Under the pieces are notes generated by a model. It ran no database searches, had not been told where the DNA came from, and saw nothing but the letters and a program-made list of their open reading frames with translations. A stretch of DNA of 61,799 nt from Patescibacteria group bacterium (lineage in GTDB: Bacteria > Patescibacteriota > Microgenomatia > UBA1400 > MFAQ01): positions 1-61,799 of the forward strand of contig CALRDV010000007.1 in assembly GCA_943355005.1 (NCBI GenBank). Reading direction: 5' to 3'. The number at the start of each line of letters is the position of its first letter. Within the stretch, counting starts at the first letter, position 1. Shown here piece by piece: positions 33,176 to 61,331 of the stretch. A program made the translations under genes and the position numbers.

Positions 33176-33196
33176 ATATTAAATCTATCCACTAAC

Positions 33197-33417
33197 AAAC
33201 CAACCTTTCGGTTGGTTACTTGGTTGCCCGGCGAGGCTCTGAAATAATTTTCCTCAAAATATTCCTTGCGAAGATTTTGAGATTAGAAAATTAATGAAGT
33301 TTGCCGGAGTCAGTTTCGTAACGAACCTGACGAGGCGGGCACCGCTAACGAAGTAGATCATCGCATTTTAAGCACCAAAAAACCAACCTTTCGGTTGGTT
33401 ACTTGGTTGCCCGGCGA
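33197..33417. mobile_element. Structured non-coding element flanked by 38 bp direct repeats of the 5S rRNA 3' end plus terminator
   Basis: aaaccaacctttcggttggttacttggttgcccggcga at 33197..33234 and 33380..33417; the core 33238..33339 is homologous to 61077..61183. Confidence 0.65.
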
Positions 33418-33527
33418 TGATCTACTTTCGCAATCAGTTGCCCAATCACTATCATCGACGCTGACCTGTTTCACTTCTCTGTTCGAAATGGGAAGAGGTG
33501 GTTCCAAGTCGCACAGATCACCGGACA
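33408..33527 (-). rRNA. rrf: 5S rRNA
   Basis: Reverse complement has the conserved CCCATTTCGAAC and AGTAG motifs; terminal helix tgtccgg/ccgggca. Confidence 0.9.
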
Positions 33528-33624
33528 GGAAAAAATTCCGAGATCAACTTGTGTTGAGCCTGCCGAAACACTTTCCTATCTTGCGATCTGTTATAAACAC
33601 CTTCTCAAATCTAGAATGACACCT

Positions 33625-33650
33625 TGTCATTCCCGACCTGATCGGGAATC
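33625..33650. repeat. TGTC-type REP in the 23S-5S spacer
   Basis: tgtcattcccgacctgatcgggaatc. Confidence 0.75.
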
Positions 33651-33729
33651 TATATAAATTAATACCATTTTAAAGAGTAATATTACTCCCTGAATAGTGA
33701 ATAGATTTGCAAAAAGATAGCACGTAAAT

Positions 33730-36982
<3,253 letters not shown>

Positions 36983-37135
36983 CATATATTCTTTTGCTTC
37001 AAATTTGAATTTGAATTCGTGCGATCTACTTGCATAATCTATTCACTTTTCAAGGAACAACATTCGAAGCTCATTGAGCTCGTGGTTGATTCTAAGGGTA
37101 GATACCTTTGGAGTCAATCACCAGATCAATTTGTA

Positions 37136-37167: not shown

Positions 37168-37240
37168 TGGACCGTGCCGGACTCGAACCGGCCACCTCTA
37201 CATTGCAAATGTAGCGCTCTACCAGATGAGCTAACGGCCC
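37168..37240 (-). tRNA. tRNA-Ala (TGC)
   Basis: GGGCCGT...TTGCAA...GGTTCGAGTCC...ACGGTCCA; G3:U70; CCA not encoded. Confidence 0.95.
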
Positions 37241-61060: not shown

Positions 61061-61270
61061 TTGTGGGCGCTCTTGGTCTGAGAAATTGTTCTCTCAAAAT
61101 ATCCCTCGCGGAGATTTTGAGGTTGAGAACAAGTTTGAAGATAGCCGGAGCCAAACCCGTAACGGAATTTGGCGAGGCCGGGGTGAAGGTAAAATCGAAG
61201 ATTTTAATCTGAACTCAACTAAAAAGACCCCAAGAGGAATCTTAATTAATTATTTTGTGGGCGCTCTTGG
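61061..61270. mobile_element. Structured non-coding element flanked by 16 bp direct repeats of the tRNA-Ile 3' end
   Basis: ttgtgggcgctcttgg at 61061..61076 and 61255..61270; the core 61077..61183 is homologous to 33238..33339. Confidence 0.65.
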
Positions 61271-61331
61271 GGTCGAACCAAGCACCTCGGTCTTATCAGG
61301 ACCGCGCTCTAACCAGATGAGCTAAGCGCCC
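61258..61331 (-). tRNA. tRNA-Ile (GAT)
   Basis: GGGCGCT...CTGATAA...GGTTCGACCCC...AGCGCCCA; CCA not encoded. Confidence 0.95.

What the first reader, a model, noticed from the sequence alone, without database searches (positions are those of the whole stretch)
33197..33417. Structured mini-element between direct repeats of the 5S rRNA 3' end
Seen: a perfect 38 bp duplication (5S 3' end plus terminator, period 183 bp) flanks a core: tctga-aattttc-ctcaaaat-ctt(gcg)aag-attttgag-gaaaatt-tgaag-gccggag-tcag-ttcg(taa)cgaa-ctga-cgaggc. A homolog sits in the same orientation at tRNA-Ile (61061). The distal end cgggcacc can pair with the duplicated ggttgcccg. No integrase or transposase is inside. Inference: a non-autonomous mobile element that targets 3' ends of stable-RNA genes without sequence specificity.
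Basis: partly seen in the sequence, partly recalled or inferred. Interest (0 to 1): 0.8.

Follow-up and report, generated by a model that had tools for sequence, protein, structure and literature searches.

The report
Structured mini-elements behind stable-RNA genes
A small protein-less folded DNA/RNA module, repeated about 27 times in this tiny bacterial genome, sits just behind tRNA, tmRNA and 5S rRNA genes and is framed by copies of the end of the gene it sits behind, which looks like an undescribed kind of selfish mini-element.

Summary
A perfect 38-nt repeat (33197-33234 and 33380-33417) carries the last bases of the minus-strand 5S rRNA plus its terminator. It flanks a structured 145-nt insert, and a homolog lies at tRNA-Ile. 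This is one member of a family. A covariance model of its core hairpin finds 27 copies in this genome and 1-23 in each of 16 of 24 relatives from the same family. It found none in the 16 genomes searched from 16 other families of the order, and there is no Rfam match. Of 86 copies examined, 48 lie 41-65 nt behind a same-strand tRNA and 6 face a tRNA 3' end. Others follow tmRNA or 5S. On the gene's strand the layout is always: gene, terminator or spacer, inverted copy of the T-loop/T-stem, module in either orientation, direct copy of the gene's 3' end. Related species have empty sites, tandem arrays and one cargo-carrying copy. No reverse transcriptase, TnpB, Cas1, IS110 or rve gene was found in this genome. 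Xer-like, serine and HUH recombinases do not track the element. The best reading is a non-autonomous mobile or recombining element specific to stable-RNA gene ends. Its mechanism is unresolved. "Without sequence specificity" is wrong, because the boundary lies in the T-loop and the frames match the target.

The parts
33197..33234 (.). Left direct repeat (distal copy). It is the antisense of the last 9 nt of 5S plus the trailer and terminator hairpin.
   Evidence: Perfect 38-nt match to 33380-33417. As a terminator it lacks the T-run.
33235..33302 (+). 5' part of the module: CUGA, helix P1 (33246-33252 with 33286-33292), hairpin P2 (33253-33281, loop UUCCUUGCGAAG), then UGAAG.
   Evidence: Fold. 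P2 is supported in 10 sequences of the convergent subfamily, with 12 pairs, compensatory changes, and 8 G-U against 2 A-C.
33303..33336 (+). Core hairpin: GCC-G-GA-G, stem, C-G-UAA-C-G, stem, C-GA-GGC. It has a 3-bp base helix, a bulged G, tandem G.A, and a 9-bp stem with a UAA triloop.
   Evidence: Model R1. 94.4% of cells are paired, 52 cells changed on both sides, and 0 of 500 shuffles reach this. R1 scores 60 bits here.
33336..33343 (+). CGGGCACC, which resembles the 5S 3' end in sense and can pair with GGTTGCCCG of either repeat.
   Evidence: It is conserved in the orthologous copy of relative G011.
33351..33364 (+). Sense copy of the 3' strand of 5S helix I (segment x). It forms an inverted repeat with the gene.
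   Evidence: 14 nt, 100% complementary to 33414-33427.
33380..33417 (-). Right direct repeat: the real 5S 3' end (33409-33417) plus trailer and working terminator (33381-33400).
33409..33525 (-). 5S rRNA gene, the target.
   Evidence: RF00001, 82.7 bits.
61061..61076 (.). Left direct repeat at the second copy: antisense of the last 13 nt of tRNA-Ile plus 3 nt of flank.
   Evidence: Perfect 16-nt match to 61255-61270.
61077..61216 (+). Module of the second copy: CUGAG, P1/P2 (P2 loop CCCUCGCGG at 61103-61111), UGAAG, core hairpin 61144-61178, and a second hairpin with tandem G.A (61181-61216).
61226..61236 (+). Sense copy of the tRNA-Ile T-loop/T-stem/acceptor part (GACCCCAAGAG). It forms an inverted repeat with the gene at 61264-61274.
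   Evidence: On the minus strand it forms a terminator-like hairpin behind tRNA-Ile.
61257..61331 (-). tRNA-Ile(GAT) gene, the target. Its 3' end lies inside the right direct repeat 61255-61270.

Best explanation
The insert behind 5S is one copy of a lineage-restricted family of small, protein-less mobile (or at least recombining) elements. They live immediately behind stable-RNA genes: tRNA, tmRNA and 5S.

Each copy is a conserved folded module. It has a core hairpin with a bulged G, tandem G.A and a UAA triloop. It also has a second hairpin with tandem G.A, and in one subfamily an extra P1/P2 hairpin.

The module is clamped between two pieces copied from the neighbouring gene. On the gene-proximal side there is an inverted copy of the T-loop/T-stem region (x'). 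On the distal side there is a direct copy of the gene's 3' end (xY), which in young copies also includes the terminator.

On the gene's sense strand the layout is always: gene, terminator or spacer, x', module, xY. The module sits in one orientation in the main subfamily, co-oriented with the tRNA. It sits in the other orientation in the subfamily to which both window copies belong.

Shown here: the family, its structure, its placement, its frames, its patchy copy number, empty sites, tandem arrays, and one copy with a cargo gene.

Inferred: it spreads by recombination within the duplicated 3'-end segment. The proposed intermediate is a circular or tandem unit (xY, terminator, x', module). This resembles the way tRNA-targeting integrative elements, or folded single-strand sites such as integron attC and CTX phage, insert while keeping the gene intact. 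The enzymes would be host functions (the two Xer-like recombinases, RecA after DNA uptake) or an enzyme not encoded in these genomes. I put this recombination route at about 0.25-0.3.

The folded strand is the 'core' strand. Whether it acts as RNA or as single-stranded DNA is open.
For: - Family and structure. nhmmer found 22 further places at E 0.13 or better. R1 finds 27 matches in the genome. Covariation of the core is 94.4% paired, with 52 double changes and 0 of 500 shuffles reaching this. The other hairpins are supported.
- Placement. 48 of 86 copies lie 41-65 nt behind a same-strand tRNA. 6 of 86 are convergent on a tRNA. 7 of 86 lie within 400 nt of a tRNA in some other arrangement, mostly further tandem units. 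tmRNA is confirmed for 2 copies. 5S is occupied in two genomes. 16 of the 44 tRNAs in this genome are occupied.
- Frames. A direct repeat of the gene's 3' end of 12 nt or more was found in most type A copies, up to 79 nt. x' matches its own tRNA at 11.0 of 14 positions against 8.6 for other tRNAs. Both module orientations occur in tandem in one frame behind tRNA-Tyr.
- Turnover. The element is in 17 of 41 genomes. Within genus g1 copy number runs 1-27. The hits fall in three genera of one family.
- Empty sites. 5S is empty in 3 relatives. tRNA-Cys is empty in 5 relatives. tRNA-Leu(caa) is empty here but filled in G001.
- Gain of a unit. In G001 a newer unit sits between tRNA-Asp and the unit that G001 shares with G010.
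- Tandem arrays. Up to 3 diverged units lie in a row.
- Core sequences do not track targets. Near-identical or identical cores occur at different tRNAs and in different genera. The nearest core sits at the same tRNA type in only 6 of 86 cases.
- Cargo. A 151-aa ORF of a phage protein family lies between tRNA-Asp and the module.
- Other public contigs show the same layout.
- No known RNA family matches.
- Strand. The core strand folds better in 70 of 83 copies. Outside the core hairpin, G-U outnumbers A-C 15 to 2.
Against: - No movement was seen directly. The one run laid consists of contigs and shows only the filled form.
- No enzyme was found that tracks the element. Two tyrosine recombinases occur in all 41 genomes. 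Among the 12 relatives of genus g1, RT was found in 1 and TnpB in 0, and neither was found in this genome. HUH and serine recombinases occur both with and without the element.
- Identical cores at different targets could come from gene conversion between copies rather than transposition.
- A fixed circular unit cannot explain how x' and xY come to match about 25 different targets.
- Some units after an unidentified non-coding region keep tRNA-Glu or tRNA-Gln frames that do not match their neighbour.
- The G011 copy at 5S has no distal repeat.
- The evidence on which terminator is native conflicts between tRNA-Leu(caa) and tRNA-Asp.
- The x'-x pairing within a copy is hardly better than between copies, 8.1 against 7.7 of 14.
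- In the core hairpin G-U and A-C are equal, 8 to 8. That gives no strand signal and is unusual for an RNA.
Confidence: 0.6

Rival explanations
1. It is a host-serving structured small RNA, made as a tRNA trailer or from its own promoter. Its 5' antisense segment pairs with the T-arm or 3' end of the neighbouring stable RNA, and its 3' sense segment masks that guide. It would act in maturation, quality control, or as a decoy. Copies would then arise by ordinary duplication and loss rather than by transposition.
For: - RNA-typical motifs are kept on one strand: tandem sheared G.A in up to three helices, a bulged G, and a closed UAA triloop.
- The core strand is more stable in 70 of 83 copies.
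- Outside the core, G-U outnumbers A-C 15 to 2.
- 48 of 86 copies are co-oriented with a tRNA and lie 41-65 nt behind it, so read-through would transcribe them.
- The antisense segment matches its own tRNA.
Against: - It is dispensable and patchy: 1 copy in G010 against 27 here, none found in 8 genomes of six other genera of the family.
- One subfamily lies antisense to its gene, and some copies lie between protein genes or inside REP hairpins.
- There are tandem arrays and one cargo copy.
- No consensus promoter was found ahead of the two window copies.
- G-U is almost absent from the core hairpin.
- No expression data could be obtained.
Confidence: 0.2
2. The copies are leftovers of larger integrated islands or prophages that entered tRNA genes through a phage-encoded integrase. 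The repeats would be attL and attR, and the module would be the conserved arm next to attR. The mini copies would be deletion derivatives.
For: - A direct repeat of the tRNA 3' end starting in the T-loop is the classic signature of tRNA-targeting integrases (established knowledge, recalled).
- One copy carries a phage-family ORF between tRNA-Asp and the module.
- Large serine recombinase genes lie 1-5 kb from some copies in relatives (coordinates).
Against: - No integrase beyond two universal Xer-like genes in any of the 41 genomes.
- Serine recombinases do not leave long repeats, and none was found in G011, which has 19 copies.
- The repeats match about 25 different targets, which one attP cannot do.
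- The spacing from tRNA to module is uniform, 41-65 nt in 48 copies. That argues against random deletion remnants.
- The one pattern match in viral contigs is a chance hit inside a GC-rich ORF.
Confidence: 0.1
3. The 38-nt duplication is an assembly artefact.
For: Repeats of 38 nt can mislead short-read assemblers. Many family members lie at contig ends.
Against: - A unitig of a public run spans repeat 1, insert and repeat 2 without a difference.
- The same architecture recurs at dozens of loci in 9 genomes, including a one-contig genome.
Confidence: 0.02

Closest known systems
tRNA/tmRNA-targeting integrative elements (tyrosine-integrase islands and prophages; attL/attR)
   Same: They insert at the 3' part of tRNA or tmRNA genes. 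The gene stays intact. A direct repeat runs from the T-loop to the 3' end. One copy here has a cargo gene.
   Different: There is no integrase in or near the element, and none tracks it. The element is 100-190 nt. Repeats match about 25 different targets and also 5S. There is an inverted copy of the target and a conserved hairpin module with covariation.
Folded single-strand recombination sites: integron attC, and CTX-type phages that exploit XerCD
   Same: An imperfect palindrome whose arms flank a variable or structured loop. Conserved unpaired or bulged bases sit on one strand. Arrays are cassette-like (unit, palindrome, unit). Host recombinases would suffice.
   Different: No IntI was found. 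The targets are stable-RNA genes, not attI or dif. The arms are copied from the target. Nothing was tested biochemically. The resemblance is by architecture only.
MITEs, REP/RAYT elements and IS200/IS605-derived palindromic elements
   Same: Small, non-coding, repeated, hairpin-rich, with variable copy number. One subfamily sits inside REP-like hairpins. HUH transposase genes are present in the genome.
   Different: There are no fixed terminal inverted repeats of its own and no fixed short target duplication. HUH genes do not track the element. IS200/IS605-type insertion leaves no duplication (recalled).
Casposons
   Same: A long target duplication that includes the 3' end of a tRNA gene (recalled from the literature).
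   Different: No Cas1 in the genome, no own terminal repeats, and a very different size.
Retron non-coding RNA, and guide-bearing element RNAs (IS110 bridge RNA, TnpB/IscB omega RNA)
   Same: Structured hairpins are closed by a helix made of flanking inverted repeats. One segment is complementary to the target.
   Different: Within genus g1, RT was found in 1 of 12 relatives and not in this genome. No TnpB was found in the genus, and no IS110 transposase in this genome. There is no Rfam match.

Membership tests
tRNA-targeting integrative element (tyrosine integrase) | Direct repeat of the tRNA 3' part flanking the insert, with the gene left intact | tested here: met
tRNA-targeting integrative element (tyrosine integrase) | An integrase gene in the element, or one specific to genomes that carry it | tested here: not met
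   Two PF00589 genes occur in all 41 genomes, with or without the element. There is no ORF in the insert.
tRNA-targeting integrative element (tyrosine integrase) | One attP core, and therefore one target sequence per element family | tested here: not met
   About 25 tRNA species plus tmRNA and 5S are occupied, with repeats matching each target.
MITE | Own terminal inverted repeats and a short target duplication of fixed length | tested here: not met
   The flanking inverted segments are target-derived. The duplication is 12-79 nt.
MITE | A related autonomous element with a transposase | tested here: not met
   No rve, IS110, TnpB or RT in the genome. HUH and serine recombinases do not correlate with the element. 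DDE families other than rve were not searched.
Integron attC / Xer-exploiting folded site | An imperfect palindrome with conserved unpaired bases on one strand | tested here: inconclusive
   The bulged G, the tandem G.A and a C.U mismatch are conserved. The strand signal is weak.
Integron attC / Xer-exploiting folded site | Recombination by IntI or XerCD at the folded site | not testable with these tools
   Only the presence of two Xer-like genes is shown.
Known RNA families (Rfam 15, including self-cleaving ribozymes, HEARO and group II domains) | A score at or above the family's gathering threshold | tested here: not met
   The best overlapping scores are 18-21 bits against thresholds of 48-63.
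Casposon | A Cas1-family integrase | tested here: not met
Retron / retroelement | A reverse transcriptase gene | tested here: not met
   PF00078 gave 0 matches in this genome and a match in 1 of 12 relatives of genus g1.

The most novel reading that the evidence does not exclude
The module is a self-targeting nucleic acid, RNA or single-stranded DNA. Its inverted segment (x') base-pairs with the T-loop/T-stem of a stable-RNA gene or its transcript, and so directs its own insertion behind that gene. Both frames are rewritten from the new target at each insertion. That would make it a guide-bearing mobile element with no dedicated protein gene in the host genome. It would also explain why tRNA genes flip orientation between sister species.
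Probability: 0.2. Interest if true: 0.9.

Novelty: new variant of a known kind. Interest (0 to 1): 0.66.

Why it matters
If these are mobile, they are a compact, protein-less element class in reduced CPR genomes. They use the most conserved sequences in any cell, the ends of tRNA, tmRNA and 5S genes, as landing pads, and they copy part of the target into their own ends. That raises a directly testable question: which enzyme or nucleic-acid chemistry inserts them? It may also explain the rearrangement of tRNA genes between sister species seen here.

On the practical side, they break assemblies at tRNA loci. They can also be mistaken for pseudo-tRNA fragments or for att sites of islands.

Tried and rejected
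- Ribozyme and small-RNA classes. I compared the sequence by eye with hammerhead, twister, k-turn and box C/D patterns recalled from memory. The CUGA...GAAG pieces are tandem G.A helices, not a hammerhead core. No Rfam family reaches its threshold. These eye comparisons are leads only.
- Viral origin. One exact-pattern scan of viral contigs gave a single hit, a chance match inside a GC-rich ORF with no tRNA nearby.
- Protein partner. Nothing tracks the element. Only these eight Pfam families were searched. No whole-proteome profiling was possible.
- Closing helix. A test of copy-specific x'-x pairing was uninformative. With 96-nt windows, 32 of 84 copies reached 8 nt or more, against 23% for mismatched partners. 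With 14-nt windows the score was 8.1 against 7.7 of 14. I therefore do not claim a copy-specific closing helix. I claim only that x' matches its own tRNA.
- Reads. Only Logan contigs were available. There were no joints, no empty allele and no circle. The parts of the stretch without cover prove nothing.
- The conserved non-coding region of about 500 nt ahead of some units in relatives has no Rfam match. Only its REP hairpins hit this genome by blastn. I dropped it.
- Literature. Three full-text searches listed nothing on such elements. I saw only listings and the starts of abstracts and read no paper. Statements about integrases, attC, CTX phage, casposons, retrons and IS200/IS605 are recalled knowledge. 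Supplementary files were not consulted.
- Several stepwise models fit only part of the data, so I do not put them forward: target-primed synthesis at a T-loop nick, a staggered-cut duplication, hairpin capping with offset opening, and fold-back copying.
- No structure prediction, complex prediction or protein database search was used.

Full report
WHAT IS IN THE WINDOW. Rfam places 5S rRNA on the minus strand at 33409-33525. 23S lies at 33732-36983 and a tRNA at 37168-37240. ARAGORN finds tRNA-Ala and, at 61257-61331 on the minus strand, tRNA-Ile.

The pair 33190-33240 and 33373-33423 is 92% alike. Its perfect 38-nt part lies at 33197-33234 and 33380-33417. The right copy holds the last 9 nt of 5S, its trailer and its terminator hairpin.

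Between the copies lie hairpins P1/P2 and a core hairpin at 33303-33336. The fold is -36.6 kcal/mol, z -3.5.

The insert also holds a sense copy of the 5S 3' strand, at 33351-33364. This is perfectly complementary to 33414-33427 inside the gene.

The copy at tRNA-Ile has the same parts. A 16-nt direct repeat lies at 61061 and 61255. The module follows. GACCCCAAGAG at 61226 is an inverted repeat with the gene at 61264.

No Rfam family matches either copy, even at E 10. A unitig of a public lake-water run covers 33205-33417 without a difference. It may come from the source sample, so it is not independent support.

A FAMILY. nhmmer, run with the two copies, found 22 further places in the genome at E 0.13 or better.

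An alignment of 21 core hairpins shows strong covariation. 94.4% of cells are paired, 52 cells changed on both sides, and 0 of 500 shuffles reach this. Slid controls give 12-43% paired.

The model R1 finds 27 matches at E 5e-4 or better in this genome. One of them repeats a locus at a contig end.

Among 41 genomes, 17 have the element. These are this genome, all 12 others of its genus (1 to 23 copies), and 2 of 2 genomes in each of two further genera. It was not found in 8 genomes of six other genera of the family, nor in 16 genomes of 16 other families of the order.

An exact pattern found it in 12 stretches of species-representative genomes. Their record titles read Collierbacteria, Patescibacteria and Paceibacterota, and some are labelled 'uncultured Pseudomonadales'. 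It also found 10 metagenome stretches. Four of these 22 stretches are GC-rich or coding chance hits. The rest show the layout described below.

PLACEMENT. I examined 86 matches in 62 stretches from 9 genomes.
- 48 lie 41-65 nt behind a tRNA on the same strand.
- 6 face the 3' end of a tRNA on the other strand.
- 7 lie within 400 nt of a tRNA in some other arrangement, mostly second or third units of tandem arrays.
- 25 have no tRNA called nearby.

Among those 25 are copies behind tmRNA (Rfam) and behind 5S (here and in G011). Four copies sit inside REP-like hairpins. Others lie between protein genes.

In this genome 16 of the 44 tRNAs are occupied. Counting 5S as well, 18 of 26 distinct copies sit at a stable-RNA gene. 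The roughly 200 nt behind each of 44 tRNAs make up under 1% of the genome.

THE FRAME. On the sense strand of the gene the order is always the same: gene, terminator hairpin or spacer, x', module, xY.
- x' is the reverse complement of the T-loop and the 3' strand of the T-stem.
- xY is a direct copy that runs from the T-loop to the 3' end.

The 14 nt before the core match the copy's own tRNA at 11.0 of 14 positions, against 8.6 for the other tRNAs of this genome. No other tRNA scores better in 29 of 48 copies, and the own tRNA is the single best in 15 of 48.

The direct repeat is 12 to 79 nt long. In the longest cases it includes the terminator: 38 nt at 5S, and 41, 50, 55 and 79 nt elsewhere.

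Two subfamilies differ in the orientation of the module within this frame. The main type is co-oriented with the gene. The type of both window copies is opposed to the gene. That type carries P1/P2 inside, and its second hairpin starts with GGGGGUGARGG.

Behind tRNA-Tyr one unit of each type stands in tandem within the same frame.

The pairing of x' with the x of the same copy is short, 7-8 bp. It is not clearly copy-specific, at 8.1 against 7.7 of 14.

WHICH STRAND FOLDS. In the core hairpin almost all pairs are Watson-Crick. G-U and A-C are equal, 8 each in about 1000 cells.

Three other lines point to the strand I call the core strand.
- The tandem G.A motifs always lie on that strand.
- That strand folds better in 70 of 83 copies, by 3.9 kcal/mol on average.
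- In the other two hairpins G-U outnumbers A-C, 8 to 2 and 7 to 0.

So one strand is the functional one. Whether it acts as RNA or as single-stranded DNA is not settled. No consensus promoter precedes the window copies.

SIGNS OF TURNOVER.
- 5S locus. It is empty in G001, G004 and G003. G011 has an orthologous copy without the left repeat and without P1/P2.
- tRNA-Cys locus. It carries no element in G001, G004, G005, G009 or G010. In four of those five the tRNA, together with its promoter, lies in the opposite orientation between the same flanking genes.
- tRNA-Ile locus. It lies next to the same left-hand gene in G003 but in the opposite orientation, with only a terminator behind it. G001 and G003 differ in orientation although they share the same right flank.
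- tRNA-Asp locus. In G001 a newer unit lies between the tRNA and the unit that G001 shares with G010.
- tRNA-Leu(caa) locus. In G001 the terminator next to the tRNA is homologous to the terminator of the empty site in this genome. Taken together with tRNA-Asp, these two cases disagree on whether the terminator belongs to the unit.
- Core sequences. They do not follow targets. The nearest core lies at the same tRNA type in 6 of 86 cases and in the same genome in 19 of 86. Identical cores occur at different tRNAs in different genera. This fits movement of the module, but gene conversion between copies would give the same pattern.
- Cargo. One copy behind tRNA-Asp carries a promoter-like stretch and a 151-aa ORF between the tRNA's terminator and the module. 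The ORF has no Pfam family and matches phrog_23161 at E 3e-21.

ENZYMES.
- Every one of the 41 genomes has two tyrosine recombinases of Xer size, with or without the element.
- RT was found in 1 of 12 relatives of genus g1 and not in this genome.
- TnpB was found in none of the genus.
- Cas1, IS110 and rve are not in this genome.
- HUH transposase-like genes occur in 29 of 41 genomes and serine recombinases in 31 of 41. Both occur in families in which no element was found. Both were not found in some element-rich genomes. G012 and G019 have no HUH hit, and G011 has no serine recombinase.

HOW IT MOST LIKELY WORKS. What is shown: a folded, one-strand-specific module, framed by an inverted and a direct copy of the end of the gene before it. 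It is gained and lost between sister species, can stand in arrays, and can flank cargo.

What is inferred: it spreads by recombination inside the duplicated segment, through a circular or tandem unit made of xY, terminator, x' and module. Integration of such a unit reproduces the observed order and leaves the gene intact. The arrays look like multimers of it.

Host recombinases, or homologous recombination after DNA uptake, would be enough for spread between cells that share the same gene. In that case the tRNA body serves as one homology arm and xY as the other.

This route does not explain how both frames come to match some 25 different targets. It does not explain why units behind one unidentified non-coding region keep foreign frames. 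It does not explain why tRNA genes invert. I therefore give 0.6 to 'mobile or recombining element of stable-RNA gene ends' and only about 0.25-0.3 to this particular route.

A guide-like role of x' is the boldest reading still open, at about 0.2. In it, x' would pair with the T-arm region of the gene or its transcript and both frames would be re-copied at each insertion.

COMPARISON WITH KNOWN SYSTEMS. It works most like tRNA-targeting integrative elements, and like folded single-strand sites such as attC or CTX phage. It fails their membership tests. There is no integrase of its own, it has many targets, and its arms are target-derived.

It is not a classical MITE, because it has no ends of its own and no fixed duplication. 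It is not a casposon, a retron, or an IS200/IS605 derivative by the features tested.

Three literature searches found no description (listings only).

VERDICT. The family appears to be undescribed. The mechanism is open.

Noticed in passing
window 33732-36983 (-): The 23S rRNA match spans 3252 nt against a 2925-position model, so the gene holds roughly 330 nt of extra sequence (insertion or intervening sequence). No 16S gene lies in the window. Only tRNA-Ala precedes 23S.
   Followed up: no
window 33620-33660; many places in G000 and relatives: REP-like hairpins (the GTCATTCC...GGAATC type) lie between 5S and 23S. They recur dozens of times in relatives, with more than 40 hits in G003. Four element copies sit inside the loop of such hairpins: C1:38377, C1:141153, C1:166675 and C5:8492.
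   Followed up: partly
G000:C8:42764-42836 against G001/G004/G005/G010; window 61257-61331 against G003:C22:19303-19401: tRNA-Cys and tRNA-Ile, each with about 20-40 nt of its promoter region, lie in opposite orientation between the same neighbouring genes in sister species.
   Followed up: partly
L097:374-829 (G000:C4:42273-42728): A 151-aa ORF lies between tRNA-Asp and an element module. It has no Pfam family and matches phage protein family phrog_23161 (E 3e-21, function unknown).
   Followed up: partly
L102, L103, L104 (G003:C27, G003:C20, G021:C1), about 500 nt upstream of the units; also L036, L038, L114, L115: A conserved non-coding region of about 500 nt is interrupted by REP hairpins and ends in ...GTTCGAATTTCGTTATAAC(ACCTCAC). 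It is followed by a terminator and a unit whose frames are of tRNA-Glu or tRNA-Gln type. It has no Rfam match. Its backbone was not found in G000.
   Followed up: partly
G000:C3:38326-38409 (-) and G000:C4:13900-13960 (behind tRNA-Lys(ttt)): A variant core (GGCGGAGGCGUGACGACACCGAGCC-like) stands in the same frame but scores poorly with model R1. A decayed copy lies behind tRNA-Lys(ctt) on C17. The family is therefore larger than the R1 count.
   Followed up: no
G000:C1:234750-238471 and C1:284713-285021: Three large serine recombinase genes (443-607 aa ORFs). One lies about 1.3 kb from tRNA-Glu(ctc).
   Followed up: no
G000:C2:141952-142640: A cluster of tRNA-Ser genes, one of which ARAGORN calls with anticodon ACT. 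It is followed by three diverged tandem units behind tRNA-Ser(gct). In two of them the copy of the tRNA end holds a 6-nt insertion.
   Followed up: no
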